DNA from: a virus
Lineage: Duplodnaviria; Caudoviricetes
Length of the DNA stretch: 52,743 bases
Strand: one strand, 5' to 3'
Virus record (IMG/VR): IMGVR_UViG_3300036828_000508
Span: 1-52,743 of that record
The notes beneath the pieces were generated by a model. That model had not been told where the DNA came from and did no database searches. It worked only from the letters and a program-made list of their open reading frames with translations. Within the stretch, counting starts at the first letter, position 1, and each line of letters begins with the position of its first letter. Of this stretch, positions 5,593 to 52,345 are shown one piece after another. A program made the translations under genes and the position numbers.

Positions 5593-5775
5593 TTATAACA
5601 ACTCCGGCTTATCGAACGGCGCGGCCCACATATCAAACCATTTGCCTTCGATCCTGCGTCGATAGTCGTCGGCAATTTCTTGCATGATCGCAATCTCGCG
5701 GTCGTCATCGCTTATGCTGCGCCGCAACGCCAGCTCGCGCTCGACGCATTTTAGTTTGGTCGCCGCGTCAAACAT
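5593..5775 (-). CDS. Hypothetical phage protein
   Basis: KLKCVERELALRR ORF overlapping the end of the upstream gene. Confidence 0.5.
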   Translation of the reverse strand: MFDAATKLKCVERELALRRSISDDDREIAIMQEIADDYRRRIEGKWFDMWAAPFDKPELL

Positions 5776-6346
5776 TAGAGTCGGCCCTTTCGTCATTGGG
5801 ATCTGCCGGTTGCTTCGGCGCGCGGCGGCGCGTTGCATCGGCCGCGAGCTGGTCGATCTCATCACGCATCGCGTCGATGGCACCGTTGAGATGCGGAAGC
5901 GACCGGCCGAGAGTCAGCACGGCCAAATATTTCGCGACGAAGCTTTCCAGTTCGTGTTTGGCCCGCTCAATGACCTGCACTCGCAAGTCCCGATCGCCCA
6001 TAATGCGGCGGCGCGTGACATAGCCGCGGTGATCGTCCGGAGTCCTGACCGAATAAAACGCGCGGTCAGATACTGTCGGATTGTTCCTCACCTCGACGTG
6101 AACAATCCGAAGGCGGTTGACGAAATGCCGCGCCTGGTCGAGCCGGTAAAGGTGCGCCGCATGCTTCTCGTTCCAGTCGAATAAATCATGACACGGATGC
6201 GAACGATTCCGCGCTTGCTCGACAATCTTCTCTGTCGCCACCGCGGAAGGATCGGCACCATCCGCAAGCTGCTCGATAAAGTCGCCAAAGATCTGCGCTT
6301 CGATCGCAGGCGCCGGGCCGCCTAATCTCCATTGATAGATCGTCAT
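5768..6346 (-). CDS. Hypothetical protein, candidate accessory factor of the RAMP/array locus
   Basis: IVEQARNRSHPCHDLFDWNEKHAAHLYRLDQAR motif; GGAG RBS; starts about 30 nt after the array ends. Confidence 0.75.
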   Translation of the reverse strand: MTIYQWRLGGPAPAIEAQIFGDFIEQLADGADPSAVATEKIVEQARNRSHPCHDLFDWNEKHAAHLYRLDQARHFVNRLRIVHVEVRNNPTVSDRAFYSVRTPDDHRGYVTRRRIMGDRDLRVQVIERAKHELESFVAKYLAVLTLGRSLPHLNGAIDAMRDEIDQLAADATRRRAPKQPADPNDERADSNV

Positions 6347-6377: not shown

Positions 6378-8160
6378 TCCTGCCGTTCCACTGCCCGCCG
6401 CTGCCAGCCGGTGCCAGCCTTGCCGATGCTGGCCATTCCGTTCCTGCCAATCCATTCCTGCCGTTCCGCTGCTGGCCTGTGCCCGCCGTTGCAGGCCACT
6501 GCACGCCTTGCCATTCCTGCCGCTCCATTCCGCTCCTGCCACTCCGATGCTTGCCGATGCCAGCCTCGCCAATGCCCGCCTCGCCGCTCCTGCCGTTCCA
6601 TTGCTGTGCCGTGCCTGCCATGCCGCGCCAGTGCGCGCCTCTCCTGCCATTCCGTTGCTTGTCGTGCCGATGCTTGCCCTTGCGGGCCATTGCTTGCCAC
6701 TGCACGCCTTGCCATTCCTGCCGTTCCAATGCCGGCCGGTGCGTGCCCATGCTTGCCAAGCCAATGCTCGCCGCTCCTGCCATTCCGATGCCAGCCATGC
6801 CATTGCTGTGCGTGCCGATGCTTGCCGATCCACTCCTGCCGTTCCATTGCCGGCCGGTGCTTGCCGTGCCTGTGCACGCCGCTGCCCGCCAAGCCACTCC
6901 TGCCATTCCTATGCCAGCCGCGCCGATGCGTGCCCGTGCACGCCGTTGCTAGCCACTGCTCGCCGAGCCCATCCTGCCGCTCCAATGCTCGCCAGTGCGT
7001 GCCGCGCCGGTGCTTGCCACTGCCCGCCAGACCATTCCTGCCATTCCATTGCTTGCCGATGCCTGCCGTTGCTTGCCGTTGCGAGCCTCTGCCTGCCACT
7101 GCGCGCCATGCCACTCCTGCCGTTCCACGCCGGTGCATGCCCGTGCGTGCCAGTGCCTGCCGAGCCGGTGCATGCCGCGCCGCTCCTGCCATTCCGATGC
7201 TCGCCGCGCCGTTGCTGTGCGATGCTTGCCATTGCAGGCCACTGCGCGCCTCGCCTTGCCACTCCTGCCGTTCCAATGCCTGCCGCTCCAATGCGCGCCT
7301 ATGCCCGCCGCTCCGTTGCTCGCCGATCCACTCCTGCCGATCCGATCCGGTGCTCGCCATTGCCCGCCGCTGCTTGCCATGCCGCTCCTGCCATTCCAAT
7401 GCGCGCCGATGCTGTGCGGGCCATTGCGGGCCATTGCCGGCCGTTGCCCGCCGCGCCCATGCGTGCCGCTGCATGCCATTCCTGCCGTTCCAATCCGTGG
7501 CGAGCCACGCCACGCCGCGCCGCGCCTATGCTTGCCCTGCCATTCCTGCCAATCCGATGCCCGCCACTGCTTGCCCTGCCATTCCGATGCGAGCCGGTGC
7601 GAGCCAGTGCTTGCCCTGCCGTTCCTGCCATTCCATTGCTGTGCGTTGCCTGCCGATACGTGCCGATCCGGTGCGAGCCGATCCGGTGCGAGCCTCGCCA
7701 TTCCTGCCGTTCCATTGCCCGCCAGGCCATTCCATTGCTCGCCGCGCCAATGCCAGCCCTTCCTTTGCCAGCCGGTCCACTCCTGCCATTCCACTGCCTG
7801 CCGGTGCCTGCCAATGCGATGCTTGCCTCGCCACGCCATGCCCAACCGCTCCTGCCATTCCGATGCGCCGTTCCATTCCTGCCGCGCCAGTGCTTGCCAC
7901 TGCCCGCCACTGCCTGCCGAGCCATTCCTGCCGCTCCAATGCCTGCCTATGCGGGCCCGGCCGATGCCTGCCGGTGCGTGCCATTGCCAGCCTTGCCATT
8001 CCTGCCACTCCGATGCGCGCCGCGCCGCTGCATGCCGGTGCGTGCCAGTGCGCGCCAATGCTTGCCTTGCCTCGCCACTCCTGCCATTCCAATGCCCGCC
8101 ATTGCATGCCGCTGCCAGCCAATGCTTTGCTCGCCACGCCAATGCCTTCCATTCCATTCC
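6378..8160 (-). ncRNA. Pentamer-periodic (GGC/GCA/GGA)-NN repeat array, about 28 units; candidate guide-RNA array
   Basis: + strand parses as GCC/TGC/TCC + NN; 28 TCCTGCC delimiters counted by eye, 26 of 27 spacings equal 5n+4. RNA status is inferred. Confidence 0.8.
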
Positions 8161-8211: not shown

Positions 8212-8973
8212 CTATTCGGCCGCGATCAACTCCGCCGCATCAAACAATTTTCCATCTTCGAATTGCTCGATCTCTGCCGCCGTTGCGAGACGCCAAGTTC
8301 CAAAAGTTCCGGATTTGCTTTCTTTGCTACCAGGGCGCCATTCGCACAGCCCCTCGATGTGTCCCGCGATCGCGATGCCTTGCAAAAGTTGAGAGGGCGA
8401 GATCATGGATGGTAAAAATTGAATGCCGACCAACACCCCCCACGGCCAAAATTCGGGACGGTGGCGAATATCGACGACGCCGCTCGCATTGCGCACCACG
8501 TCTGTTCGCATGCGGGGATTGTCTTTGGTGGTGATAATGCGGACGAGATTTGTTGCTAAGTCGTCAGGATGAACACGTAGGCTCTTGGCGGTTCTCAGCG
8601 TCACCCCGCTCCCTTTAGGAAAACCGCAGGAGAATGCCGCCTTGATGCCGCCTGCCGGAATTCCATCGGAGCCGTCCGAGAGCCGGTAACGAGCCGCCTG
8701 GAAATTTGCTTCCGGGTCTTTCGGGTCGCGGCCTTCGCTCGCCTTCCCCATGTGTTTGTCCAAAATCGAATGGATCAACTTGCTGCTAAATTTGTGTGTG
8801 ATGACCGGCGATGTTCCGATCAGCAGCGTCGTCATGCTCAAAGTCTTGACGCCCGGGATCGTCATGATGCCGGTCTTGCTGGTGTTGATTGCCGTCTTCG
8901 GCGGTGCCTCGACCGCGGTTTCGATCTTCGCCTTTGCCTTGGCAACCGTCTTGGTCTTCGTTTTCTCAAGCAT
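8212..8973 (-). CDS. Stand-alone Cas7-like RAMP-superfamily protein
   Basis: First strand LIGTSPVITH, GIPAGGIKAA helix, HRPEFWPW, and C-terminal glycine-rich loop GHIEGLCEWRP...GTFGTW. Confidence 0.75.
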   Translation of the reverse strand: MLEKTKTKTVAKAKAKIETAVEAPPKTAINTSKTGIMTIPGVKTLSMTTLLIGTSPVITHKFSSKLIHSILDKHMGKASEGRDPKDPEANFQAARYRLSDGSDGIPAGGIKAAFSCGFPKGSGVTLRTAKSLRVHPDDLATNLVRIITTKDNPRMRTDVVRNASGVVDIRHRPEFWPWGVLVGIQFLPSMISPSQLLQGIAIAGHIEGLCEWRPGSKESKSGTFGTWRLATAAEIEQFEDGKLFDAAELIAAE

Positions 8974-21022: not shown

Positions 21023-21457
21023 ATGATCAAGCGCGGGCGGGTTTCGGCGGCCGAGAAGAACATCACGGTTATTGCGGGGGCGTTTGGCGAGCGGCCAGCG
21101 CCGCCGGCTGATTTCAACGAGCGCCAGGCCGAGATCTGGCGCCAAATTGTGGCGTCTGAGCCGGGCGAGTTTTTCAATACCGCGACGGTGCGCGACATGC
21201 TGGCCAATCTTTGCCGCCATCGCGAAGCGGCGGACAGGTTGGCGGTGGTAATTGATGGGTTTGAGCTTGAGTGGCTTAAATCGGACGAGGGCTCGAGGCG
21301 TTATGCGCTGCTTTTGAGAATGCGGGTTCAAGAGACCCGCGCTGCCGCCAGTTTTGCCACCAAGCTGCGGCTTACCAATCAATCGCGCTATGTGCCGGAC
21401 ACTGCCGCGCGGATGGCGCGTGATGGGCTCAAGGGCACCAAGCCTTGGGAGTTGTGA
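21023..21457 (+). CDS. terS: Terminase small subunit
   Basis: Upstream of and overlapping terL; PAPP, ATKLRLTNQSR. Confidence 0.75.
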   Translation: MIKRGRVSAAEKNITVIAGAFGERPAPPADFNERQAEIWRQIVASEPGEFFNTATVRDMLANLCRHREAADRLAVVIDGFELEWLKSDEGSRRYALLLRMRVQETRAAASFATKLRLTNQSRYVPDTAARMARDGLKGTKPWEL

Positions 21458-22983
21458 AGCAAAAGCGCCGCCCTCGCGAGACCAGAGGCGAGCGCAACGT
21501 CCGCTGGATCGAATCGTATTGCCGTATTCCCGAAGGGCCAAAGCTTGGCAAGGCGGTTAAGCTTCGTGACTGGCAAAAGGCTGAGATCGTCAAGATCTAC
21601 GACAATCCGACTGGGACGCGCCGCGCCATCATTTCGTGGGGCCGGAAGAACGCCAAGACGACGTTTGCCGCGTTCCTGCTGCTGCTACACCTATGCGGGC
21701 CGGAGAAGCGCTACAATTCGCAATTGTACTCGGCGGCGCAAAGCCGCGACCAGGCGGCGCTGATCTTCAATCTCGCGGCGAAGATTGTGCGGATGTCGGC
21801 CGATCTGCGCACGGTCGTGGTTATTCGCGATACCGCCAAGCAACTGTTTTGCCCGGAGCTGGGCACGCTGTATCGCGCATTGTCGGCCGAGGCGGCGACG
21901 GCGTACGGATTGTCGCCGGTGCTTATTGTGCACGACGAGCTCGGCGTGGTGCGCGGCCCGCGTTCGGCGCTCTACGAGGCGCTCGAGACCGCGACCGGCG
22001 CGCAGGAAGCGCCGCTGTCGGTGATCATCTCGACGCAGGCGGCGACCGACAACGATCTGCTTTCGATTCTGATTGACGACGCCGTCGCCGGCAACGATCC
22101 GCGGGTGACGTGTTCGCTGCATACGGCACCGGTGGGCGCCGATCCGTTTGCTGAGGAGACCATCAAGCTCGCCAATCCGGCATACGGCGACTTTCTAAAC
22201 CCGGTCGAAGTCATGGCTATGGCGCAGGACGCCAAGCGCATGCCGGCGCGCGAGGCCGAGTTCCGTAATCTGGTGCTCAATCAGCGCGTCGAGACCGACA
22301 AGCCGTTCGTGTCGCGGCTGGCCTGGAAGGAATGCGGCGCCCCGGTTGAAGATCTGCATGGCGTTGCGCTGTTTGCCGGGCTTGATCTGTCCAGTGTTGC
22401 CGATCTCACCGCGCTGGTGCTGATCGGCGAGATCGACAGGGTATGGCATGTCCAGCCTACGTTCTGGCTGCCGGAGGAGGGCCTGGTCGAGAAATCGGAT
22501 CGCGATCGCGTTCCCTACGATCTGTGGCGGGGCCAGGGATTTCTGAAAACAACGCCGGGCAATTCGGTGTCCTACGAGTTTGTTGCGCAATATCTACGCG
22601 AAGTGTTTGCCGAATACGACATCCGCAAGCTAGCGTTTGACGACTGGAACATGATGCATTTCAAGCCGTGGCTGCTGCAGGCTGGGTTTTCCGAATCGTT
22701 GCTGGCGGACCGTTTCGTTAATTTCCGCCAGGGTACCAAGTCGATGTCGCCGGCGCTGCGGGTGCTCGAGCAGGCGGTGCGCGAGCGCCGGCTGGCGCAT
22801 GGCAACCACCCGGTGTTGGCGATGTGCGCAGGGTGCGCCGTCGTCGAGGGCAAGGACGACGCCAATCGCAAACTGTCGAAGAATAAATCCACCGGTCGCA
22901 TCGATGGCATGATCGGGTTGACGATGGCGATCGGCGTCGCACCGCTGCAGGTCAAGATCGATATTGAAAGTTTAATAGGCTGA
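21445..22983 (+). CDS. terL: Terminase large subunit
   Basis: GRKNAKT, VHDELG, ISTQA, GLDLSSVADLTA, RIDGM. Confidence 0.95.
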   Translation: MGVVKQKRRPRETRGERNVRWIESYCRIPEGPKLGKAVKLRDWQKAEIVKIYDNPTGTRRAIISWGRKNAKTTFAAFLLLLHLCGPEKRYNSQLYSAAQSRDQAALIFNLAAKIVRMSADLRTVVVIRDTAKQLFCPELGTLYRALSAEAATAYGLSPVLIVHDELGVVRGPRSALYEALETATGAQEAPLSVIISTQAATDNDLLSILIDDAVAGNDPRVTCSLHTAPVGADPFAEETIKLANPAYGDFLNPVEVMAMAQDAKRMPAREAEFRNLVLNQRVETDKPFVSRLAWKECGAPVEDLHGVALFAGLDLSSVADLTALVLIGEIDRVWHVQPTFWLPEEGLVEKSDRDRVPYDLWRGQGFLKTTPGNSVSYEFVAQYLREVFAEYDIRKLAFDDWNMMHFKPWLLQAGFSESLLADRFVNFRQGTKSMSPALRVLEQAVRERRLAHGNHPVLAMCAGCAVVEGKDDANRKLSKNKSTGRIDGMIGLTMAIGVAPLQVKIDIESLIG

Positions 22984-23678: not shown

Positions 23679-24350
23679 ATGAGGAATCTTCTTTTCGCCG
23701 GTGCGGCGCTGCTCTTCGGTAGCCTTTCGGCGCAGGCCGGGACGTTCGATGCGACGAGCTTCTCGGTAATTGGCGGCGAGAACGTCTCGATGACGTCGCC
23801 GAAGGTGCAAACCGTCAGCGCCGGCGAAGTGACGCTGAGCGGGCCGAGCGGCAACATCGACGTCTGGTGCGTCGATCTTCTCGACGTGATCAGTCTGCCT
23901 TATCTTTATAGCACCGGTGTCTACGTGCCGGGCTCTTCAGTGCCGGGCATGCCGACATTGGACGCGACGCAGACCCACGATGTTGCCGATCTGATCGAGA
24001 ACGGCCAGGGCACTGGCGCCACCAATGCCGAGATCCAGGTCGCGATCTGGGAAATCCTTTACGGCAGCAACTTCGTGCCGGTCGGCCTCACCGCGCCGTT
24101 CAGCGCCGAAGTCGCAACGCTAATCGGCGAGTCCGGCACGTTGCTCAATTGCCCGGACTGCTCCCTGCAAGTCTTCACCGACGCGCCGACGGTCGTCAGC
24201 CAGTCATTTGCCGATGTTGTTGTGGCACCGACGCCAATCCCTGGCGCGCTGTTGCTGTTTGGGAGCGGCCTCATCGGCCTTGTTGGCGCTGGCTACGGTG
24301 CCAAAAGAAAGCTGCCGCGATCAGCGTTCAATACCGCAATCCAAACATAG
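23679..24350 (+). CDS. Second PEP-CTERM/VPLPA-CTERM-like exported protein
   Basis: Signal peptide (AQA), WCVDL, IQVAIWEI, C-terminal TPIPGALLLFGSGLIGLVG...KRK. Confidence 0.8.
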   Translation: MRNLLFAGAALLFGSLSAQAGTFDATSFSVIGGENVSMTSPKVQTVSAGEVTLSGPSGNIDVWCVDLLDVISLPYLYSTGVYVPGSSVPGMPTLDATQTHDVADLIENGQGTGATNAEIQVAIWEILYGSNFVPVGLTAPFSAEVATLIGESGTLLNCPDCSLQVFTDAPTVVSQSFADVVVAPTPIPGALLLFGSGLIGLVGAGYGAKRKLPRSAFNTAIQT

Positions 24351-24360
24351 GAGATGTCCG

Positions 24361-24975
24361 ATGCGTGGTTTTCTCGCTTACGTCCTGCCGGTCGATAGTG
24401 GACCTGTTGATCCCGGTTTCGGCGTGCCGGGCTGGCCCGCCCACCCGATTGCGCCTGGCGGTCCGCCGCCTGGTCCGTCGCAAGGGCCCGGCTTCCCGAC
24501 GCATCCGATTGCACCCGGTGGCCCGCCTCCGGGCATTTGGGGCGGTCGTCCGCCGAATTGGGTAGATACTACGCCGCCTGGTCCGCAGCCGAGTCCGGGC
24601 TGGCCTCCGGTCGTGATGCCGCCGATTTACTATCCGGGCGGAACGCCTCCGGGCATTTGGGGCGGTCGTCCGCCGGACTACGTCGACATCGGTCCGCCGC
24701 CTCCGCAGCCGGTGCCTGGTTGGCCTCCTGTTGCGATGCCGCCGATTTACTATCCGCCTAGCGGCAGCGGCAGGCCGCCTGGCATTTGGGGCGGTGGCAA
24801 CGAGCCGTTCCCGACGCCGCCGATCCATCTGCCGCCCGAATACCCGATACCGGAAGGCAAGGTTGCGATCCTGGTCTGGACGCCGGACGACGGTTTTCAG
24901 GTCAAAGTCATCGAGAAGCCGCCGGGCTACAATCCGCCGCCCGGTGCCGCGGTGCCGACACCGCAGGAAGCCTAA
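24361..24975 (+). CDS. Proline/glycine-rich repeat protein
   Basis: AGGAG RBS; repeated HPIAPGGPPPG, PPGIWGG, PPIYYP. Confidence 0.7.
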   Translation: MRGFLAYVLPVDSGPVDPGFGVPGWPAHPIAPGGPPPGPSQGPGFPTHPIAPGGPPPGIWGGRPPNWVDTTPPGPQPSPGWPPVVMPPIYYPGGTPPGIWGGRPPDYVDIGPPPPQPVPGWPPVAMPPIYYPPSGSGRPPGIWGGGNEPFPTPPIHLPPEYPIPEGKVAILVWTPDDGFQVKVIEKPPGYNPPPGAAVPTPQEA

Positions 24976-25095
24976 CGCTAGGAATTGACCTGATCGCGAG
25001 ATGATCGCGAAAGACGGTTGCTGTTAACGATGGCAGCCGTCCCAGAGAGAGTCCGCGACTCCCTCCCGCAGGCTGCGGACTCTCTCGCTTCTCCT

Positions 25096-25128
25096 AAAAA
25101 AGTGGGGCCGCCGGACGAGGGCGACCCC
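25096..25128 (-). terminator. Intrinsic terminator downstream of the orphan array unit
   Basis: - strand GGGGTCGCC-N7-GGCGGCCCC-AC-TTTTTT. Confidence 0.6.
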
Positions 25129-25134
25129 GTAGAT

Positions 25135-25191
25135 CCCTGCCATTCCATTGCCAGGCTTTGCATTGCTTGCCTCGCCGAGCCGCGCCACTCC
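25135..25191 (-). ncRNA. Orphan single unit of the pentamer array
   Basis: + strand: CCC T GCC AT TCC AT TGC CA GGC TT TGC AT TGC TT GCC TC GCC GA GCC GC GCC AC TCC. Confidence 0.7.
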
Positions 25192-25232
25192 TTCAACAAC
25201 CCGAAGCCTATCGGACCGACGAAGGTAAAGCC

Positions 25233-27698
25233 ATGCTAAAATTAAAAGAATACGCAGACCCAGGCTATCAAAGTGACGGCAAAAAGCGGTTTCCGCTCGA
25301 TGATGCAAATTGGGTTCGGCGCTCTTGGGCGCGGCTGGTTCAAATCGGTGACAAATATACCGATGAGCAAAAGCGGCGCATTGCCATCCGGATCACTGCG
25401 GCTTGGAAGGACAAGATCGAATCGGCCGGGCCGCCGGCGCTCGACGACAAGGCCGCGATGGAGATTGTTCAGCGCGAGTCGTTGTTAATCATCAAAGCCG
25501 AGGCGCCGGACCCGGACGATGACGAGTCCCACGATGACTACATCGAACGCTGCATCGACGAGATGACGTCGGACGACGACGACCTCGCCGACGACCAGGC
25601 CGAGGAAGCGTGCCAACTCAATTGGGAAGAATACGACGATCGCGGCGCCGGCTTGATAATGCACAAGACGCGTACGACGCCCGCCGGTGGCATGGTATTT
25701 GTTTTGTCCGATGCAACGCCCGATCGCTTCGGCGACATCATCGAGGTGTCATCCTGGGACACCGAGAACTTTCAAAAAAATCCCATCGCGTTATTCAACC
25801 ATGACAAAAGTTTTGTGATCGGGAAATGGGCCAATCTGAAAAACGACGACAAGGATCTGCGCGGCGAGCTGGTGCTGGCGCCGAAAGGCACGTCGCCGCG
25901 CATCGATGAAATTCGCCGGCTGATCGAAGCCGACATCCTGCGCGCCGTCTCGGTCGGCTTTCGCCCGGTCGAGACCGAGCCGATCAACGCCAAGGATCAG
26001 TGGGCTGGCACCCGCTATCTCAAAAGCGAGCTGGTGGAGACCAGCGTGGTCGCGGTGCCGGCAAATCCGAATTGTTTGGCAATCGCTCGGAGCTTGAACA
26101 TTTCACCTGCAACTGTCCGCTTGGTTTTTGGCGAGCATGCCAACGAGAAAGTCATGCGGCGGAATTACGACGCGAACCGAGGCGAGGATGCCAATACGCG
26201 GCGCGCGGCGAAGACTGGCGAGGATGCCGACGACAACAGGAAAGCTACCAACGGCGAGCATGCCGAAACACATCGTAGTACGACGAGGGGAAACCCCATG
26301 TTGCTTTCGCAACGCATTCAGGAAGCCCAAAAGCGCGTCATCGCGCTGCAGGACAATCTCGACAAACATCTCGAAGGTATCGACGACGAAAGCCCGAGCG
26401 AAGAGCAGATGGTGCTGACCGAGGATCTGACCAGCAAGATCCAGACGGCAACGCGCCATCATGACAGCCTGGTCGCCATCGAAACCAAGAACGGTGCTCG
26501 CGCCGTCGACGCCGGCGATGCCGGTAAGACCGGCAGGAGCCTGATCAAAGCCCCGGCTGATCTGATCATCCGCAGCAAGAAAAAGGCCGACGTTCTCGAC
26601 CTTTTTGTGCGGGCAATAATCGTCGGCACCAAGGCGCGTATCGATGGCACCCCCATTGACGACATGCGCCGCAAAATTTACGGCGACGACGAGGCGCAGC
26701 GCGTGGTTTGCGATTACGTTCTCAAGGCAGCCTCGGCGCCCGCCATGACCACGGTGGCCGGATGGGCCGCCGAGCTCGTGCAAACGATCTGGCCGCAGTT
26801 CATGGAAGCGTTGCTGCCCTCGAGCGTATATCCCAAGCTCGAGGCAATGGGTCTCGCGCTGACGTTCGGCGCCGCCGGCCGCATCATCATCCCGACTCGT
26901 AATCTGACGCCCGCGGTGTCCGGCAGCTTCGTCGGTGAAGGTTTGCCGATCCCGGTGCGCCAGACTGCATTCGCCAGTCAAGCGCTTACGCCAAAAAAAA
27001 TGGCAGTAATCACGGTTTGGACAAAGGAAATGGCAGACCACAGCATCCCAGCGATCGAAGGCCTGTTGCGGCAAGCGGTGCTCGAGGATACCGCGATAGC
27101 ACTCGACACCGTTTTGCTCGACAACAATCCGGCGACTGCGATCCGGCCGCCCGGCCTGCGGTCCTATCAAGCGGGTCTCACCGCCTCGACGGCGACGCCG
27201 GGTTACACCGCCTTTGTCGCCGATTACCGGGCACTCTATGGCGCGTTGCTTGGCCTCACCAACGGCAACGTGCGCAAACCGGCAATTCTGCTCAATCCGA
27301 CGCAGACCATGGATCTGAGCACCCTACAACCGCCTGCTGCGGCAGCACCGCTATGGCCGTTGTCGGAGATGGTCAACGCTGGCCGTATCGGCAAAGCCGC
27401 GCTGATTGAATCGGCAACAGTACCGGCGGGCATGGCGATCATGGTCGATGCCGCCGACTTTACCTCGGTCGGTTCTGAAGGAATGCGCATGGACATCAGC
27501 GACCAGGCGACAATTCACCTGGAAGATACCAGTCCGCAGGACATCGTGTCCGGCCCGAGCGGCACGCCGGTCCCTGCGACGCCAGTCAAATCCATGTGGC
27601 AAACAGACTCGCTCGCTTTACGGATGATAGCGCCAATCAATTGGATCATGCGTCGCCCAGTGGTCGCATGGATGACCGGCACGGCGTGGGGCACGTAG
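25233..27698 (+). CDS. Fused prohead protease and HK97-fold major capsid protein with an extra N-terminal domain
   Basis: NPIALFNHD, AVSVGF, ETSVVAVPANP; FVGEG...LTPKKMAVI; probable internal start at 26298. Confidence 0.9.
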   Translation: MLKLKEYADPGYQSDGKKRFPLDDANWVRRSWARLVQIGDKYTDEQKRRIAIRITAAWKDKIESAGPPALDDKAAMEIVQRESLLIIKAEAPDPDDDESHDDYIERCIDEMTSDDDDLADDQAEEACQLNWEEYDDRGAGLIMHKTRTTPAGGMVFVLSDATPDRFGDIIEVSSWDTENFQKNPIALFNHDKSFVIGKWANLKNDDKDLRGELVLAPKGTSPRIDEIRRLIEADILRAVSVGFRPVETEPINAKDQWAGTRYLKSELVETSVVAVPANPNCLAIARSLNISPATVRLVFGEHANEKVMRRNYDANRGEDANTRRAAKTGEDADDNRKATNGEHAETHRSTTRGNPMLLSQRIQEAQKRVIALQDNLDKHLEGIDDESPSEEQMVLTEDLTSKIQTATRHHDSLVAIETKNGARAVDAGDAGKTGRSLIKAPADLIIRSKKKADVLDLFVRAIIVGTKARIDGTPIDDMRRKIYGDDEAQRVVCDYVLKAASAPAMTTVAGWAAELVQTIWPQFMEALLPSSVYPKLEAMGLALTFGAAGRIIIPTRNLTPAVSGSFVGEGLPIPVRQTAFASQALTPKKMAVITVWTKEMADHSIPAIEGLLRQAVLEDTAIALDTVLLDNNPATAIRPPGLRSYQAGLTASTATPGYTAFVADYRALYGALLGLTNGNVRKPAILLNPTQTMDLSTLQPPAAAAPLWPLSEMVNAGRIGKAALIESATVPAGMAIMVDAADFTSVGSEGMRMDISDQATIHLEDTSPQDIVSGPSGTPVPATPVKSMWQTDSLALRMIAPINWIMRRPVVAWMTGTAWGT

Positions 27699-27728
27699 CA
27701 ACACTGATTCACAAACGGAGTGATACCG

Positions 27729-28073
27729 ATGGCAGACACAGAGACCAAAAACCAGCACCCTCAGCATGCTCAGCATGCCCAGCATGCGACGCCCAAGACG
27801 GCCGGCGATCGCATGGCCGAAGATAAAAAGCAGCTCGCGGCCGAGCGCGAGCAGCGTGCCAAAGACATGGCCGAACGCGACAAGCACCGCGGTACGCCAA
27901 CGCCGACGCAGGAGGAATGCGACCTCGCCAAGCTCGGTCATCATCCTCAGCTCGCCGACGATGGCTCGGGGCCGGATCCGAACGAAAAGCTAAATACGGT
28001 CCGGCATATCGGTGCCAAGCCGCCAGCTTCTAATGCGGAGTATCAAACCCGCGCGGCAGCGCCGAAGGTCTGA
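27729..28073 (+). CDS. Hypothetical head-region protein
   Basis: GGAG RBS; PTPTQEECDL. Confidence 0.6.
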   Translation: MADTETKNQHPQHAQHAQHATPKTAGDRMAEDKKQLAAEREQRAKDMAERDKHRGTPTPTQEECDLAKLGHHPQLADDGSGPDPNEKLNTVRHIGAKPPASNAEYQTRAAAPKV

Positions 28074-28080
28074 AACTTCC

Positions 28081-29541
28081 ATGGGCCTGGTCTCGCGGAT
28101 CGGTCAGACGTTCTCGGCCGTTGTTAAAGCGGCCGAGGGCGCCTGGCGCCCAGGTCCTTACTATCTCCCGGTGACGCACGGTTTTTTGCCGGACGGTGCC
28201 GCTGTTAACTGGTGGCAATGCGGCGAGACTCCTTATCTCGCCGGCACGCGGCTCGCCATCATCGAAGCTTGCATCGGCGCCTACAGCCAGACCATGGCGA
28301 TGTGTCCTGGATCGCACTGGCGCGCCAACGGCAAAGGCGGCCGCGATCGCGTCACCAATTCCGCGCTGTGCAGAATCCTGCGCTACCCAAACGATTATCA
28401 GAGCATCAGCGATCTGATTCTTAACACGGTGCGGCAGCTCTATCTCGAGGGCAACGCCTATCTGCTGTGCATGCGCAATGCGCGCTATGAGATCGAAGAG
28501 CTGCACCTCATGGACAATAGGTACAGCCGCGCCATGATCGACGGCGAAGGCGAGGTGCATTATGTCGTCGGTGGCAATTGGATAGTGCAGAACCGCTACG
28601 GCCCCTTAACGACGGTGCCGGCGCGCGACGTTCTGCATATCAAGCTGCACGTCGATCAGCTGCGCAATCCACTGCGCGGCGAAAGCCCGCTGGTGTCGGC
28701 TTATCTCGATGCCCTGACCGGGCAGTCGATCCGCGCCCAGCAATACGTGTTTTATCAGAACCAGGCCAAGCCCGGCTTTGTACTCTCGACCGATCTGGTG
28801 CTCGACAAGGATCAGGTCTCGGCATTGCGCGATCGTTGGAGCGAGCAATCAACCGGCGCCAATGCTGGCGGCACTCCGATCCTCACCAATGGCCTCAAGC
28901 CATTGCAGATCCCGGTCACCAATTTTCGCGACGCCCAGCTCGCCGAAGTGCTGCGGCTGACCGATCAGGATATTGCCATGGCGTTTCGCGTGCCGGCGCA
29001 GCTGGTCGGTCTGCAGGCCGCGCACACCACGCCGCACAGTTCGACCGAAGCGCTGATGCAATCCTGGGTCGCGTCCGGCCTTGGCTTCTGTCTCAACCAT
29101 ATCGAGGAAGCAATTGGCCAAACCTTTGAGCTCGACGGTCAGCCGGACGAGTATGTCGAATTTGATACCGGTGCGCTGCTGCGCTCGGATTTCAAGGATC
29201 GCATCGACAGCCTGGCCCGCGCAGTACAAGGCGGCATCATGAGTCCCAACGAGGCGAGAAATTCCGAAGATCTGGATTCGGTACCGTTCGGTGATGAGCC
29301 TCGTGTCCAGCAGCAGGTGGTGCCCTTGAGTCAGGTCGGCAAGATTCCGCCAGCGCCAGCTGCGCCATCGCAGCCGAGCGCGCCGCCGTCAGATAAAAAA
29401 CCAACGCAGCAGCCGCCGGGATCGTCGCAGAAGGCAGATGCCAATGTCGCAGCCAATGGAATCGCCCGAGTCATGTTCACCCGCGCCAAACGGATCCAAC
29501 GGCAGCAGCAGCGCGAACAACAACGACTCCTCAGCAGCTGA
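28081..29541 (+). CDS. HK97-family portal protein
   Basis: LRYPN, LYLEGNAY, DVLHIK, GESPL, IAMAFRVP, MSPNEAR. Confidence 0.92.
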   Translation: MGLVSRIGQTFSAVVKAAEGAWRPGPYYLPVTHGFLPDGAAVNWWQCGETPYLAGTRLAIIEACIGAYSQTMAMCPGSHWRANGKGGRDRVTNSALCRILRYPNDYQSISDLILNTVRQLYLEGNAYLLCMRNARYEIEELHLMDNRYSRAMIDGEGEVHYVVGGNWIVQNRYGPLTTVPARDVLHIKLHVDQLRNPLRGESPLVSAYLDALTGQSIRAQQYVFYQNQAKPGFVLSTDLVLDKDQVSALRDRWSEQSTGANAGGTPILTNGLKPLQIPVTNFRDAQLAEVLRLTDQDIAMAFRVPAQLVGLQAAHTTPHSSTEALMQSWVASGLGFCLNHIEEAIGQTFELDGQPDEYVEFDTGALLRSDFKDRIDSLARAVQGGIMSPNEARNSEDLDSVPFGDEPRVQQQVVPLSQVGKIPPAPAAPSQPSAPPSDKKPTQQPPGSSQKADANVAANGIARVMFTRAKRIQRQQQREQQRLLSS

Positions 29542-29554
29542 ATACCAGGAGAAT

Positions 29555-30628
29555 ATGCTCGATGCCGGCGCCGCCGTCATCGTCGAGCTGGAGGCCAAAT
29601 GGGGTCGCGATCTCGATCTCATGCGCGCGGAGGCGCGCGCGATCATCGCCGACCTGCGCGCCGCGAATGTCGAGCTGGTCGCGCAGCAGCGCGAGAAGAT
29701 CGATTATCGCCTAGCCTCGCTCAAAGACGGTGACGTCGGCGAGCCGGGCAGGAACGGCAGCGTCGGCGATCCAGGGCCAGCTGGCCCAGCCGGTGCGCCT
29801 GGCTTGCCGGGCGACAAAGGCGATACCGGTGAGCCCGGCGAGCCCGGAAAGAACGGCGCCGATGGCGCGCCTGGAGTCGAAGGACCGCCCGGCGCTGTCG
29901 GGCCGGTCGGGCCGCCCGGCGCTAACGGCGAGCCCGGCGAGCCTGGTCGCAATGGCGACGCCGGCGCGTCCGGCGCCAAGGGCGATCGCGGCGAGCCTGG
30001 CCGCAATGGTGAACCCGGCGTGGTCGGCGCCAAGGGCGAGCCCGGTGAGCCTGGCCGCAACGGCGAGCCCGGCATGGTCGGCGCCAAGGGCGATCGCGGC
30101 GACAAGGGCGAAGCCGGTCCGCGCGGCGGCGTCGACAAGATTGTCGCCTGGTCGGATCGGATCTTCTACGAGGGCCGTCTGGTCACGCACAAAGGCTCGT
30201 GCTGGCAGGCCGCTTGCGATACCGCCAGGCAGCCCGGCACTTCCGCCGATTGGCTCGAGATCGCCGCCGGCGGCGCACCCGGTGGCACCTTCAAAATTCG
30301 CGGCACCTGGCGCGCCGAGGAAAAATACCGCGCGCTCGATGTCGTCACCCTCGATTACGGCTGGTTCGTCGCCAGGCAGGACGATCCCGGCCCGATTCCC
30401 GGTCCTGGCTGGCAGGCCGGCCCGGTCGGCCGCCGCGGCGAAAAAGGCATCGCTGGCGAGCGCGGCGGCAAAGGCGATCCCGGCAAGTCGGCGCCGCATT
30501 GGATCGGCCTCAAGGCCGACGGCTATAGCCTCACCGCGGTGATGAGCGATGGCGCTATCGGGCCGCGCATTTCGCTCTTCTCGATGTTTGAGCAATTCGA
30601 GGCCGAGCTGAGACTGCGGAGCAAATAG
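29555..30628 (+). CDS. Collagen-like (Gly-X-Y) head-associated protein
   Basis: Long GXY tract; C-terminal VTHKGSCWQA module; AGGAG RBS. Confidence 0.75.
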   Translation: MLDAGAAVIVELEAKWGRDLDLMRAEARAIIADLRAANVELVAQQREKIDYRLASLKDGDVGEPGRNGSVGDPGPAGPAGAPGLPGDKGDTGEPGEPGKNGADGAPGVEGPPGAVGPVGPPGANGEPGEPGRNGDAGASGAKGDRGEPGRNGEPGVVGAKGEPGEPGRNGEPGMVGAKGDRGDKGEAGPRGGVDKIVAWSDRIFYEGRLVTHKGSCWQAACDTARQPGTSADWLEIAAGGAPGGTFKIRGTWRAEEKYRALDVVTLDYGWFVARQDDPGPIPGPGWQAGPVGRRGEKGIAGERGGKGDPGKSAPHWIGLKADGYSLTAVMSDGAIGPRISLFSMFEQFEAELRLRSK

Positions 30629-33753: not shown

Positions 33754-34061
33754 AAATGGTTAACGTCAACATCCGAACCATCACGCCAGGCCAGCGCCAG
33801 CGCGAAAAAGTTCAGCGCATGCAGAAACTGCACCAGCGGCCAGGCATCCGCGTCACGCCAAAAAATGACGACATGCGGCGCTTGCTCAAGCATCCGCGCG
33901 CCGGCGCCTTCCGCAGCGAAGGCTCGATGGAATGGCCCGACGACAGCTTCACCCACCGCCGGCTGCGCGACGGCGACATCAAGCGCGAGGAAAAGAAAAC
34001 CGAAGAGAAGTCGGACCAGGCTCACCATCGAAGCCCAGCCAGCCACCAAACCAAGGAATAG
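33750..34061 (+). CDS. Mu-like DUF2635-type small protein
   Basis: LKHP...EWPDDSFTHRRLRDGDI directly before the sheath. Confidence 0.6.
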   Translation: MKMVNVNIRTITPGQRQREKVQRMQKLHQRPGIRVTPKNDDMRRLLKHPRAGAFRSEGSMEWPDDSFTHRRLRDGDIKREEKKTEEKSDQAHHRSPASHQTKE

Positions 34062-34146
34062 CTGGAAAAATAATTCTCTCTTACTAAAGGCAAGCCATGG
34101 TCGGCCGCGCGGCGGCTTACGTGGCTTCAAACAAAGGAGAAGACCC

Positions 34147-35999
34147 ATGCCGATATCTTTTGCGGCGATTCCCTCTTCAATTAAAGTTCCGCTGTATTGG
34201 GTTTTTTGAGGCCCCTTTGCCGAGCAATCGGCATCGAATAAATCCGGGTGAATTCAGGGAACAGCCAGACCGGCCAATCCTGAGCCAAGCCGCGCAAGCG
34301 GACAGGTGCAACGACTAGAGCGAAAGCTCGTAGGGCCAAGCGGCCCGAAGCGCCCGGCCCCTCACAAACGAGGGTGATGATATAGTCTGCTCTGCATAGG
34401 AATATGCAGCTGTCCCGCAAAGGGACGACGACGAGCCTCGCGACCTCGTTGTGAACATAAGGTGAGGTCGACCCCTCGATGGCTGGTTTGCCGTCGATCA
34501 ATCTGCGCGCACTTCTCGTTGGTGTGATGAGCACTACCGAGGGCAGCGCGACGGTTGATGTGCCGGTGCCGATCGGCTCGCAAGCGCAGGCCGATTCCAA
34601 TTTTGGCGTCGGCTCGGAATTGAGCCGGATGTTCACTCGATTCTATTCCAATAATTTCGCGAATGAAGTGTGGGGCCTCGGCGTTTCGCCCGGCGGCACT
34701 GCATCGGCGGCGACCGGCACCATCACCGTCACGGCGGCGCCGACGGCTCCCGGCACGTTATGGCTTTACGTTGCCGGCCAGCTGGTCAGCGGCATCAATA
34801 TCTTTACCACCGACACGGTACCCGACATCGCGACCTCGATCGCCGATGCGATCAATGGCGCCTATGCCAGTGGCGATCCGGCGTTGCCGGTCAGTGCCGT
34901 TGCTGCGGCCGGCGTCGTGACGCTGACGGCGTTGTTTGATGGCGTCAACGGCAACGAGATCACGGTGTCGCTGAATTACCAGGGCGCACTTGGCGGTCAG
35001 ATCACGCCTCCCGGCCTCGGCATTACGTTGCCGACCGGTGGCTTGCTCAGCGGCGGCGTCGGCACGCCGGATTTCACCAACGCCATCGCCAACATCCAAA
35101 AGGAAGCGTTCGAATACGTCGCGATGCCGTACGCTGACGCCAATTCGCTGTTCGCTTGGGATCAGGAATTTGGCTTCACCGACACCGGCCGCTGGGGCTG
35201 GCAGCGCCAGCAGTTCGGCCATGTCTTTAGTGCCAAGCGCGGCATCTACTCCGACTTGATCCTGTTTGGCGATACACTTAACAGCGGGGTCGAGTCGATC
35301 ATGGCAATGGAGCAGACTTGTCCGTCGCCGATGTTCGAGGTCGCGGCCGCCTATACCGCCAAGGCGCAGCGCGCTTTGATCAACGATCCGGCGCGGCCGT
35401 TGCAGACCTTGTCGCTCAATGAAGTCAAGGCAGCGCCACTGCAGGACCGTTTCAACTTCGTCGAGATCAACAGCCTGGCATCGAACGGGCTGGCGATTCA
35501 GGAAGTCGGCAGCGATGGTCAGCCGATGATCATGCGGGAGCAAACGACTTATCAGCTCAATCTCTACGGCCAAACCGACGACGCCTATGAGCTGGTAACG
35601 ACGCTTGCGACCTTGGCCAAGCTGCTGCGCAATCAGCGCCAGGCCATCACCTCGAAATTCCCGCGCAGCAAGCTCGCCGACGACGGCACCAAGTTCGGGC
35701 CGGGGCAGGCGATCGTCACGCCCGGCATCATCAAGGCCGAGCTTGTCAACGAGTACCAGCTCGATATGTGGAACGGTCTTGTAGAGAACCTTAAAGAGTT
35801 CAAGGCTAATCTAATGGTCGAGCGCGACCCCAATGACCCCAATCGGGTCAACGTGCTCTATCCGCCCGACCTGATCAATCAGCTGCGGATCTTTGCCGTG
35901 CTGGCACAGTTCCGCTTGCAATACGATCGTGGCCTCGACACCGCGATCATCGGTGCAGCACCGCCTCCGTTCCAGGCGGCTGGTGGTACGCCGCAGTAA
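34147..35999 (+). CDS. Mu gpL-like tail sheath protein, split by an intron (exons 34147-34202 and 34463-35999)
   Basis: Spliced N-terminus MPISFAAIPSSIKVPLYWVEVDPSMAG; FGVGSEL, DPARPLQTL, DLINQLRIFA. Confidence 0.92.
34203..34462 (+). ncRNA. Group I self-splicing intron without an ORF
   Basis: Exon ends in U paired with the GCCC guide; P GAATTCAGGGAA, Q AATCCTGAGC, R CAACGACTAGA, S ATGATATAGTC; terminal G; removal restores frame. Confidence 0.92.
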
Positions 36000-51184: not shown

Positions 51185-52345
51185 ATGGCCATCGTGCCTT
51201 GGCAGTGCGCCAGCGGCGACGCGCCCTCGGTCACGCTGCCGTGCGCGACGACCGTAGCGCTCGCGCCGCCCGACGATAGCGTCGACACCAATCAAGTCGT
51301 CATCACTGGCAACGGTGCCATCGAATCATTTGGGCCGCCGCCAGGACCGCAGATAATCGATCCAGCCGATCCGCCGGTCCCGGTCGGCATCACTAAAAAA
51401 GTCACGTTCGAGCCGACGTCGCCGACAGCGCCGATTTCGCTTATTCATAATGGCACGACGCTAAGTTTGCTCGGCGGCGTCTCCAGGACGATCAGCAACA
51501 AATCGATCGGCGTTTATGCCTGCGATCCTGCCGGCAATTGGTCCGAGCAGTCATTCACCGATACGACAGTTGGCGATGGCGGCGGCGGCGGTAGCACGCC
51601 TGGCCCTCCGGGGCCGACCGGCCCAGAAGGCCCAGCAGGTCCACCCGGTGCAACCGGCCCGGCAGGTCCTACCGGCCCACAAGGCGCAACAGGCCCGCAA
51701 GGCTCAACTGGCGCGACCGGATCGGCTGGACCGCAAGGTCCGGCGGGGCCGCAGGGCCTGCAGGGAATTCCGGGTGTTGCGGGCTCGACCGGCGCGACTG
51801 GCCCGCAGGGCAATCCAGGGCCGGCTGGCGCAACCGGCCCAGCGGGCGCGACAGGTCCTGCTGGCCCAGCCGGTGCTGACAGCACGGTGCCGGGGCCCGC
51901 TGGCGCAACCGGCCCAGCGGGCGCGACAGGTCCCGTTGGCCCAGCCGGTGCTGACAGCACGGTGCCGGGGCCCGCTGGCGCAACCGGCCCGACAGGTGCG
52001 GCCGGTCCCGTTGGCCCAGCTGGCGCTGATAGCACAGTGCCGGGGCCGCCCGGGGCAACAGGCTCAACAGGCGCAACAGGCCCAGCTGGCCCGACAGGTG
52101 CGACCGGCGCTGCCAGTACGGTGCCGGGCCCGGCCGGTCCCAGCTATTTGGCGACCTCGGCGACGGCGATGCCGATCGCAAAAGGCAGCGTGACATTCAC
52201 GACGCAGGCCGGCTCCGCCTATAGCGTCGGCGCTCGCATCCGGCTGGCGTCGCGCGGCGCGCCAACTACAACCTGGATGGAGGGCGTCATCACTGCGTAT
52301 TCGGGCACGTCGATGACCGTCAATGTCGATCTCACAGGACCATAA
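51185..52345 (+). CDS. Collagen-like fibre protein
   Basis: Long GXY tract with tandem [15 protein letters not shown] repeats. Confidence 0.75.

What the first reader, a model, noticed from the sequence alone, without database searches (positions are those of the whole stretch)
25096..25191. Orphan array unit with its own terminator, antisense and just upstream of the capsid gene
17 kb from the array, a 57-nt intergenic stretch obeys the same grammar on the same strand: about 10 pentamers ending in a GGCAGGG delimiter variant. A GC hairpin plus U6 follows immediately. This looks like a stand-alone single-guide gene and supports the idea that one unit is the functional RNA. It could instead be a cis binding site regulating head genes.
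Basis: partly seen in the sequence, partly recalled or inferred. Interest (0 to 1): 0.8.

Follow-up and report, generated by a model that had tools for sequence, protein, structure and literature searches.

The report
Stand-alone VIPR guide RNA beside capsid gene
The short five-base repeat just upstream of this soil phage's capsid gene is very probably a stand-alone guide RNA gene of the phage's own CRISPR-like VIPR system, aimed at the capsid-protease gene of rival related phages; VIPR and such solo guides were first described in 2026, so this is a new example of a known kind.

Summary
On the - strand, 25191->25137 is 11 in-phase pentamers obeying the grammar of the 1.8-kb array at 8160->6380. 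A 9-bp GC hairpin and T6 (25128->25096) follow. 10 of 11 pentamers fit; elsewhere in the genome and in 100 Markov surrogates the best is 7.

The system is already known: VIPR (three 2026 bioRxiv preprints), a Cas7-like Vipr protein plus pentamer guide RNAs whose two variable bases per unit read DNA while skipping every third base. The window's 253-aa protein (8212-8973) matches solved SUSP1 Vipr and folds as a Cas7-type RAMP. The array fits the published "staggered" type. Solo guides are also published.

New here: under the published code the orphan's variable bases read M-[Q/H]-F-I-[L/F]-S-[D/E]-A-T. This matches the start of the prohead-protease domain in protease-capsid genes of related phages at 17 of 18 positions, in frame, with the skipped base on the wobble position (0 of 2000 shuffled guides reach 17). 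The phage's own gene, 500 bp away, matches 15 of 18.

No RNA data exist and no perfect target was found. This scan has reported VIPR on other DNA before. Verdict: a real solo guide, a new member of a known kind, of moderate interest.

The parts
25137..25191 (-). Solo vrRNA repeat tract of 11 pentamers. Units 1-9 (25191->25147) carry the variable dinucleotides GT GC TC GA AA AT AA TG AT. Units 10-11 (25146->25137, GGAAT GGCAG) are the constant unit end shared with the array.
25096..25136 (-). 3' end of the solo RNA gene: linker GGATCTAC (25136->25129), G+C hairpin (25128->25104), then AC and T6 (25101->25096). It is an intrinsic terminator on the - strand only.
25045..25086 (+). Separate 12-bp hairpin after the upstream + strand gene (24208-24975), followed by a weak U tract. 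With the solo RNA's terminator it forms a convergent pair.
   Evidence: read from the sequence; not folded separately
25233..27698 (+). Fused prohead protease (S78) and major capsid protein gene, 821 aa.
25692..25718 (+). The phage's own copy of the site the guide reads (MVFVLSDAT). It matches the guide at 15 of 18 informative positions, or 13 of 16 without unit 1.
8212..8973 (-). vipr: Cas7-like RAMP protein, 253 aa (phrog_4652).
6380..8160 (-). Staggered vrRNA array of 28 units. Unit length is 5n+4, because the last G of GGCAG doubles as the first G of the next unit.
7704..7782 (-). Array unit whose guide reads the vipr gene of related VIPR phages (G006/G007) at 23 of 26 positions, against 20 of 26 for the phage's own vipr.
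7482..7545 (-). Array unit whose guide reads the Walker-B region of a helicase-like gene of another VIPR phage (G008/L393) at 18 of 20 positions.
5768..6346 (-). Conserved gene directly after the array (phrog_15946); candidate vap accessory gene.

Best explanation
The stretch is a solo vrRNA gene: one guide RNA of the phage's own VIPR system, encoded as a separate - strand transcription unit 17 kb from the vipr-array-vap locus and ended by its own intrinsic terminator. By analogy with published work, one Vipr protomer (gene 8212-8973) binds each pentamer, hides the fixed G[G/C][C/A] bases and presents the two variable bases. The filament then pairs with double-stranded DNA, reading two bases and skipping one, and silences transcription there. 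Decoded this way, the guide reads ATnCAnTTnATnTTnTCnGAnGCnAC on the coding strand, which is M-[Q/H]-F-I-[L/F]-S-[D/E]-A-T. This is the conserved first strand of the prohead-protease domain of the fused protease-capsid gene. I infer that the guide is a weapon against related phages competing in the same cell. The phage's own allele (MVFVLSDAT) differs at three read positions. Because the guide sits beside that allele, weapon and resistant allele are inherited together. Shown here: the sequence anatomy, the Vipr homology and fold, the association of Vipr genes with pentamer arrays, and the statistics of the target match. Inferred: transcription, loading by Vipr, silencing, and discrimination between self and rival.
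For: Anatomy:
- The orphan is one complete unit with array-type start (GGAGT) and end (GGAAT GGCAG), followed by a hairpin and T6 on the same strand.
- It is not a copy of any array unit; the best full-length overlap of variable bases is 9 of 18.
- Its 11 units lie within the 10-19 range of 25 of the 28 array units.

System identity:
- The best PDB sequence hit of the 253-aa protein is SUSP1 Vipr 36pp_D (E 0.016). With a 34-sequence profile the E-value is 1.1e-4.
- That alignment places window R172 and E211-W212-R213-P214 on SUSP1 R138 and D177-W178-R179-P180. The triplex preprint names R138, D177, W178 and R179 as contacts of the fixed bases.
- The AF2 model has pLDDT 82. Foldseek gives 59 PDB hits at E <= 1e-3, and those listed are CRISPR effector complexes (type III Csm, type VII, gRAMP/Cas7-11).
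- 39 of 51 viral loci with a homologue have pentamer runs on the vipr strand, nearly all within about 3 kb.

Target:
- In 74 capsid-relative loci chosen before decoding, the guide's best match is 17 of 18 at the same in-frame site (MEFILSDAT) in L001, L067 and L009. Five more loci match 16 of 18 there.
- 0 of 2000 base-shuffled guides reach 17; the maximum is 16, reached 8 times. Other skip lengths give 14, and other registers give at most 16.
- Without unit 1 the match is 15 of 16, and 1 of 2000 shuffles reaches 15.
- With unit 8 left free, the pattern hits 51 IMG/VR contigs. 10 of these are this same GM[E/D]FILSDATPDRF[G/D/A]D site in protease-capsid genes (GC 0.47-0.62), all at 17 of 18. 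The other 41 look like chance.

The code works in this system:
- Only the 1-nt skip rule gives hits of at least 17/18 for array units. One is in the vipr gene of G006/G007 (23 of 26). One is in a helicase-like gene of G008 (18 of 20). Both are in frame with the skip on the wobble base. Skips of 0, 2 and 3 give 0 hits.

Literature:
- Published work describes solo vrRNAs, vipr-targeting guides, wobble alignment, and self-matches lower than non-self matches.
Against: - There is no RNA evidence; the only run holding this DNA is the source metagenome.
- No sigma-70-like promoter was found upstream of the unit. The best by eye is TTGATA-19 nt-TTTAAT.
- No perfect target exists in any collection searched. 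The exact 18-base pattern gives 0 hits in viral contigs. It gives 10 in metagenome contigs and 10 in genome contigs, none at a homologous site.
- Every known candidate target carries the same mismatch in unit 8, which is also the one unit (GCCTG) that breaks the grammar.
- If all 11 units are counted, the relatives score 17 of 22 (77%) and self 15 of 22 (68%). Both fall below the 80% threshold used in the preprints.
- Self and rival differ at only two read positions, and one of these could be an rU-dG wobble, so discrimination is uncertain.
- Unit 1 is semi-constant, and in the two array guides with targets it did not pair.
- The best-matching phages L001/L067 have 47% G+C against 60% here and may infect other hosts.
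- None of four related VIPR phage records (G006, G007, G009, G010) has a remote solo unit; the partial record G008 showed no pentamer run at all.
- Position 3 of the pentamer is A in 5 of 11 units, whereas the SUSP1 Vipr pocket excludes purines. The chemistry of recognition must therefore differ.
Confidence: 0.68

Rival explanations
1. Self-regulator: the solo guide acts on the phage's own protease-capsid gene 500 bp away, tolerating mismatches. It would hold head-gene expression down at some stage of infection or lysogeny, as in CRISPRi.
For: The best match in the whole genome is the phage's own homologous site, at 15 of 18 (83%); the next best is 14 of 22 on the 11-unit count. One of the three mismatches could be an rU-dG wobble. 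The guide sits next to the gene. Published VIPR silences from either strand.
Against: A guide kept for self-regulation should match its own gene best, yet 8 loci of related phages match better (17 or 16 of 18). Both bases of unit 8 mismatch the phage's own gene. The published surveys report no self-targeting hit at 80% or above and lower self than non-self scores.
Confidence: 0.12
2. Relic: a once-functional guide, or a unit moved by recombination, that is no longer expressed or no longer matches any living target.
For: Unit 8 is degenerate (GCCTG) and is the mismatched unit in every candidate target. No perfect target was found. No promoter was detected. None of four related VIPR phage records (G006, G007, G009, G010) has such a unit.
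Against: The unit boundaries, 10 of 11 pentamers and a strong terminator are intact. The other 8 units match candidate targets at 16 of 16 positions. The preprint notes frequent internal degeneracy in working vrRNAs.
Confidence: 0.12
3. Cis element or plain antisense RNA: the stretch acts through the DNA or through convergent transcription into the capsid 5' region, independently of the guide code.
For: It lies 41 nt from the capsid start codon and is antisense to it. L064 carries another terminator-ended pentamer RNA gene antisense beside its capsid gene.
Against: Published Vipr binds the G-rich RNA, one protomer per repeat, not DNA repeats. The + strand transcript carries the C-rich complement. 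This reading does not explain the code-specific, in-frame match to protease-capsid genes.
Confidence: 0.05
4. Chance resemblance in G+C-rich DNA.
For: None beyond the high G+C content (60%).
Against: The orphan scores 10 of 11 in-phase grammar pentamers. The maximum is 5-7 in 100 Markov surrogates and at most 7 elsewhere in the genome. The delimiter is found only in the array and here, all on one strand.
Confidence: 0.01

Closest known systems
Solo (orphan) vrRNAs of F5 satellites and VIPR-null SUSP1-family phages (Lopez et al., bioRxiv 10.64898/2026.10.15.759431; abstract, sections 7, 8, 9 and 17 read)
   Same: A single pentamer-repeat guide encoded away from vipr and vap. The variable dinucleotides read a coding sequence with the skipped base on the wobble position. 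It is aimed at rival mobile elements, and the self-match is lower than the non-self match.
   Different: Here the genome also carries a complete vipr-array-vap locus, and the solo unit sits 17 kb away among late genes, not at a deleted vipr locus. There is no 40-nt pseudoknot tail; the unit ends in two constant pentamers and a terminator hairpin. The fixed bases are G[G/C][C/A], not GGY. The predicted target is a protease-capsid gene. The published target classes are vipr, vrRNAs, satellites and host REP elements.
Staggered vrRNA arrays of VIPR systems (bioRxiv 10.64898/2026.04.26.720920; Results, Discussion, Methods and the fig. S18 legend read; figures and supplementary data not seen)
   Same: The window's main array has units of length 5n+4, in which the end of one unit is the start of the next. 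This fits the published 1-nt overlap. Vipr is a minimal RAMP, and an accessory gene follows the array.
   Different: The published text I could read gives no sequences for this type, so membership in a numbered VIPR type could not be assigned. The orphan is a single unit outside any array.
Type II VIPR of Escherichia phage SUSP1 (same preprint, and the cryo-EM preprint 10.64898/2026.04.26.720927, Results part 1 read)
   Same: The same pentamer logic and the 1-nt skip rule. Thumb arginine and the [D/E]-W-R-P glycine-loop motif are conserved.
   Different: Only the C-terminal 46 residues align by sequence. There is no pseudoknot tail. A purine is allowed at pentamer position 3. The arrays are far longer (28 units).
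Phage-borne CRISPR mini-arrays and solitary repeat units
   Same: A lone guide or repeat carried by a phage and used in conflicts between mobile elements.
   Different: These use contiguous spacers flanked by repeats and depend on host Cas proteins. There are no pentamer units and no gapped code.

Membership tests
VIPR system (Vipr + vrRNA) | A Vipr protein (minimal RAMP: RRM core, thumb, glycine-rich loop) is encoded by the element. | tested here: met
   The best PDB sequence hit is SUSP1 Vipr (E 0.016 for the single sequence, 1.1e-4 for the profile), with the thumb arginine and [D/E]WRP motif aligned. AF2 model pLDDT is 82. There are 59 Foldseek PDB hits at E <= 1e-3, and those listed are CRISPR effector complexes (type III Csm, type VII, gRAMP/Cas7-11).
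VIPR system (Vipr + vrRNA) | Tandem pentamer repeats lie next to vipr on the same strand. | tested here: met
   The window's array at 8160->6380 starts about 50 nt after vipr. 39 of 51 homologous loci have such runs on the vipr strand.
vrRNA | 9-16 tandem pentamers with three fixed and two hypervariable positions. | tested here: met
   The orphan has 11 units. In the array, position 1 is G in 333 of 335 pentamers, positions 2-3 are restricted to GC/CA/GA, and positions 4-5 use all 16 dinucleotides.
vrRNA | The canonical fixed motif GGY in every unit. | tested here: not met
   Orphan units are 5 GGC, 2 GGA, 3 GCA and 1 GCC. The array has GGC 173, GCA 111 and GGA 44 of 335. The preprints allow 'related consensus' motifs (NNNGG, YNNNG, NNNNG; non-canonical trinucleotides). 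This therefore excludes the canonical subtype, not the family.
vrRNA (type II, SUSP1-like) | A conserved ~40-nt 3' tail with a pseudoknot. | tested here: not met
   After the last unit come 8 nt and a plain terminator hairpin. Array units have no tail at all. It is not a type II vrRNA.
vrRNA | The variable dinucleotides match a natural target under the 1-nt skip rule, with the skip aligned to the wobble base. | tested here: met
   The orphan matches the protease-capsid site of relatives at 17 of 18, in frame. 0 of 2000 shuffles reach this, and other skips and registers score lower. Two array units also hit in-frame targets, again only with skip 1. Caveat: counting all 11 units gives 77%, below the published 80% threshold.
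vrRNA | The RNA is transcribed, processed to about 60-100 nt and bound by Vipr. | not testable with these tools
   No RNA run holds this phage.
Solo vrRNA (Lopez et al.) | Encoded without vipr and accessory genes in the same locus. | tested here: met
   The flanking genes are a 255-aa protein of no known family and the protease-capsid gene. vipr lies 17 kb away. Unlike the published cases, the genome is VIPR-positive.
Staggered vrRNA array | Successive vrRNAs overlap by 1 nt. | tested here: inconclusive
   25 of the 28 parsed units have length 5n+4; of the rest, 2 measure 5n (the first and the unit ending at 6380) and 1 measures 5n+2. GGCAG is followed by GA[AG][TC], which fits a 1-nt overlap. 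Processing sites are not known without RNA data.

The most novel reading that the evidence does not exclude
The solo guide and the capsid gene form a linked 'weapon plus resistant allele' cassette. The guide silences the protease-capsid gene of co-infecting relatives at a motif they cannot change synonymously. It sits 500 bp from the phage's own escape allele, so recombination of head modules between rivals cannot separate them. This would be a poison-antidote or greenbeard logic for RNA-guided silencing. It is not stated in the parts of the VIPR preprints that I read.
Probability: 0.25. Interest if true: 0.6.

Novelty: new member of a known kind. Interest (0 to 1): 0.35.

Why it matters
VIPR is a months-old discovery, and its experimental work comes from E. 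coli and Pseudomonas phages. This window adds a complete soil-phage example of a non-canonical type, with fixed bases G[G/C][C/A] and a staggered array. Three of its guides can be assigned plausible targets by computation alone: a rival's vipr, a rival's helicase-like gene and rivals' protease-capsid gene. The orphan shows that a VIPR-positive phage can keep a guide outside the array as its own terminator-ended gene in the late region. It also shows that structural (head) genes can be VIPR targets. The placement next to the phage's own variant of the target suggests a testable linkage principle. None of this changes the kind of system. It extends the known range and gives a compact three-part test set: the Vipr gene, the 100-nt orphan, and the two 27-bp sites.

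Tried and rejected
- **Similar DNA in phages.** blastn of 24000-27700 against the phage collection found no match.
- **Rfam.** Nothing was found at the locus.
- **RNA evidence.** No RNA holder is listed; the only run is the source soil DNA run. Its contigs only confirm the assembly.
- **Whole array units as guides.** With the constant units included or dropped, searches of about 2.6 Mb of fetched loci found nothing above shuffles.
- **U6717.** It hits G003 at 17 of 18, but the skip is not on the wobble base and the constant units are included. I treated it as chance.
- **L064 solo RNA.** No target was found in any fetched DNA or in its own 8.2-kb fragment.
- **Exact 18-base target pattern.** It gave 0 hits in viral contigs, 10 in metagenome contigs and 10 in genome contigs. 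All 20 sit in unrelated contexts, in line with my own rough chance estimate of about 14-17 per collection.
- **Single-protein search for Vipr relatives in viral contigs.** It found none; the alignment-based search found 51.
- **Delimiter pattern GGAAYGGCAGGARYGGC in viral contigs.** It gave 119 stretches, mostly single hits, which I did not examine.
- **Capsid protein in the five closest Vipr-bearing records.** 0 of 5 have it, so VIPR and head modules are not co-inherited.
- **Early ideas dropped once the literature was found.** These were a TRAP-like or CsrA-like protein sponge, two-tetrad G-quadruplex RNA, a centromere-like DNA repeat, and a repetitive protein gene. All six frames are open across the array only because the pentamers lack stop codons.
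- **Supplementary data.** The supplementary data of the preprints (type assignments, target tables) could not be seen. They may already list this clade or capsid-directed guides.

Full report
**What is there**

The window is a whole IMG/VR virus record of 52,743 bp with direct terminal repeats. Its left arm runs on the - strand and holds RecE/RecT-like genes. Also there are a 253-aa gene (8973->8212, phrog_4652), a 1.8-kb repeat region and a 192-aa gene. Its right arm runs on the + strand and holds:
- the large terminase (21445-22983);
- a fused prohead protease and major capsid gene (25233-27698);
- the portal gene (28012-29541).

Tandem Repeats Finder reports many overlapping periods of 5, 10 and 15 between 6391 and 8071. 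Read on the - strand and parsed from each GGCAG, the region 8160->6380 resolves into 28 units. Each unit is GA[AG][TC] followed by in-phase pentamers GGCNN, GCANN or GGANN, and ends GGA[AG][TC] GGCAG. Nearly all unit lengths are 5n+4, and 79 nt is the commonest. Over 335 pentamers, position 1 is G in 333. Positions 2-3 are GC, CA or GA in 328. Positions 4-5 use all 16 dinucleotides.

**The observation**

On the same strand, 25191->25137 reads GGAGT GGCGC GGCTC GGCGA GGCAA GCAAT GCAAA GCCTG GCAAT GGAAT GGCAG. This is one complete unit with an array-type start and end.

It is followed by GGATCTAC, a hairpin with 9 pairs (8 G-C) at 25128->25104, and T6 at 25101->25096.

The match to the grammar is far beyond chance:
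- 10 of 11 pentamers obey the grammar. The best elsewhere is 6-7 of 11, and 100 Markov surrogates give 5-7.
- The delimiter pattern occurs 17 times in the array, once here and nowhere else. All copies are on the - strand.
- A source-run contig spans the locus without differences.

**What the system is**

A literature search led to three 2026 bioRxiv preprints on VIPR, Viral Interference Programmable Repeat systems.
- The discovery paper: I read the Results, Discussion, Methods and figure legends.
- The cryo-EM paper: I read the first part of the Results.
- The competition paper: I read the abstract and sections 7, 8, 9 and 17.
- I also read passages of a fourth preprint that recovers VIPR arrays with non-canonical pentamers.

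According to these preprints:
- A small RAMP protein, Vipr, polymerises on a vrRNA of 9-16 pentamers, one protomer per repeat.
- It buries the fixed trinucleotide and exposes the two variable bases.
- These bases pair with DNA while every third target base is skipped.
- The skipped base usually falls on the codon wobble position, and binding silences transcription.
- 'Staggered arrays', in which successive vrRNAs overlap by 1 nt, and 'solo' vrRNAs encoded without vipr are both described.

**Membership tests**

The window's 253-aa protein passes as a Vipr:
- Its best PDB sequence hit is SUSP1 Vipr (E 0.016).
- A profile of 34 homologues raises this to 1.1e-4. It aligns the thumb arginine and the [D/E]-W-R-P loop with the SUSP1 residues that the cryo-EM preprint names as contacts of the fixed bases.
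- The AF2 model (pLDDT 82) gives 59 Foldseek hits at E <= 1e-3. Those listed are CRISPR effector complexes: type III Csm, type VII and gRAMP/Cas7-11.
- Of 51 viral loci with a homologue, 39 have pentamer runs on the vipr strand, nearly all within about 3 kb.
- The gene after the array is conserved directly after the arrays of G006, G007, G009 and G010. It is a candidate vap.

Two features differ from the well-studied type II:
- The fixed bases are G[G/C][C/A], not GGY.
- There is no pseudoknot tail.

**Does the published code apply here?**

I sliced the array units into 9-unit sub-guides, dropping the two constant end units. I scanned the genomes of Vipr relatives with them. Hits of at least 17/18 appear only with the 1-nt skip rule; skips of 0, 2 and 3 give none.
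- Unit 7782->7704 reads the vipr gene of G006/G007 at 23 of 26 positions. It reads the window's own vipr at 20 of 26.
- Unit 7545->7482 reads the Walker-B segment (LAIVDTSAAYFL) of a helicase-like gene of G008 at 18 of 20 positions. The window has no homologue of that gene.

In both cases the guide-sense pattern lies on the antisense strand and the skipped base is the wobble base. vipr-directed guides are exactly what the competition preprint reports.

**What the orphan reads**

Its variable dinucleotides (GT GC TC GA AA AT AA TG AT) give ATnCAnTTnATnTTnTCnGAnGCnAC on the coding strand. That is M-[Q/H]-F-I-[L/F]-S-[D/E]-A-T.

In the 74 capsid-relative loci, which I fetched before knowing any of this:
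- The best match is 17 of 18, at the same in-frame site (MEFILSDAT, followed by [A/P]DRFGD) in L001, L067 and L009.
- Five further loci match 16 of 18 at that site.
- The window's own gene (MVFVLSDAT, 25692-25718) matches 15 of 18.

Controls:
- 0 of 2000 shuffled guides reach 17.
- Other skip lengths give 14, and other registers at most 16.
- Dropping the semi-constant first unit leaves 15 of 16, which 1 of 2000 shuffles reaches.

A collection-wide scan with unit 8 left free found 51 contigs. Ten of them are this same site in protease-capsid genes, five with G+C of 0.59-0.62 like the window. The four non-GGC units of the orphan pair under the same rule, so GCANN units behave like GGCNN units.

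**Limits**

- No perfect 18/18 target exists in the viral, metagenome or genome collections.
- The mismatch is always in unit 8, the one degenerate unit.
- Counting all 11 units gives 77% for relatives and 68% for self, below the published 80% cut-off. Dropping the constant units is my choice. It is justified by their invariance and by their failure to pair in the two array-guide targets.
- Self and rival differ at only two read positions.
- There is no RNA evidence and no clear promoter.
- The four closest VIPR phage records lack a remote solo unit.
- Among capsid relatives only L064 has a comparable gene. It has a promoter-like TTGACA-17-TGAGAT, 21 pentamers, then a hairpin and T5, lies antisense just downstream of its capsid gene, and has no identifiable target.

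**Interpretation and verdict**

The best explanation is a solo vrRNA of the phage's own VIPR system, aimed at the protease-capsid gene of related phages (confidence about 0.68). The rivals are:
- self-regulation of the phage's own capsid gene (0.12);
- a decaying relic (0.12);
- a code-independent cis or antisense role (0.05);
- chance (about 0.01).

The bolder reading is that the placement beside the phage's own mismatched allele links weapon and immunity. I give it 0.25.

This scan has reported VIPR loci and solo guides on other DNA several times. It is a new member of a known kind. It adds a non-canonical repeat type, a VIPR-positive genome with a remote terminator-ended guide, and a structural gene as the predicted target.

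Noticed in passing
window 7704-7782 (-) and L391 10579 / G006 34438: One array unit decodes to the vipr gene of a related VIPR phage (66% identical Vipr) at 23 of 26 positions, in frame. It matches the window's own vipr at 20 of 26 (site at 8377). It looks like an anti-VIPR guide of the kind published for SUSP1-like phages.
   Followed up: yes
window 7482-7545 (-) and L393 2262 / G008 17937: Another array unit decodes to the Walker-B segment of a 509-aa helicase-like gene of another VIPR phage at 18 of 20 positions, in frame. The window has no homologue of that gene.
   Followed up: yes
L064 1040-1215 (- strand of the locus): A capsid relative carries a compact pentamer RNA gene antisense between its capsid gene and the next gene. 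It has TTGACA-17 nt-TGAGAT, then 20 GGCNN units and GGAAT, then a hairpin and T5. No target and no vipr were found in its 8.2-kb fragment.
   Followed up: partly
The six I opened (L196, L202, L238, L268, L233, L250) all hold pentamer arrays of 40 to 700 nt. Pentamer arrays appear common in uncultured phages.
   Followed up: partly
window 5768-6346 (-): The 192-aa gene after the array (phrog_15946, no Pfam family) recurs directly after the arrays of G006, G007, G009 and G010 (40-65% identity). It is a candidate vap accessory gene of this VIPR clade.
   Followed up: partly
window 34194-34409 (+): A group I intron (Rfam RF00028, 86 bits, E 1e-20) lies between ORFs 33865-34209 and 34479-35999 in the late region.
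   Followed up: no
window 24524-24756 (+): A 120-nt tandem duplication (1.9 copies, 82% matches) lies inside the proline-rich ORF 24208-24975, just upstream of the orphan. Contigs of the source run show alternative joints within it, which suggests length variants or related strains.
   Followed up: no
window 29916-30102 and 51617-52110 (+): Repeats of period 9/27/54/75 nt, with collagen-like Gly-X-Y periodicity, lie in two late ORFs that are probably fibre proteins.
   Followed up: no
phage collection: The Vipr-like protein has tblastn matches of 31-33% identity (E 1e-19 to 1e-25) to 'hypothetical proteins' of Gordonia phages (UmaThurman, Pipp) and many Mycobacterium phages (Quico, Florinda, Saal and others). 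Weaker matches occur in 77 Escherichia records. Cultured actinophages may therefore carry VIPR.
   Followed up: no
G003 28362-28403 (+): Array unit 6717->6644 matches G003 at 17 of 18 over its last nine units, constant units included. The skipped base is not on the wobble position, so this is probably chance.
   Followed up: partly
L075 4976-5091: The delimiter pattern GGAAYGGCAGGARYGGC occurs six times at 18-nt spacing in one viral contig. I did not open it.
   Followed up: no
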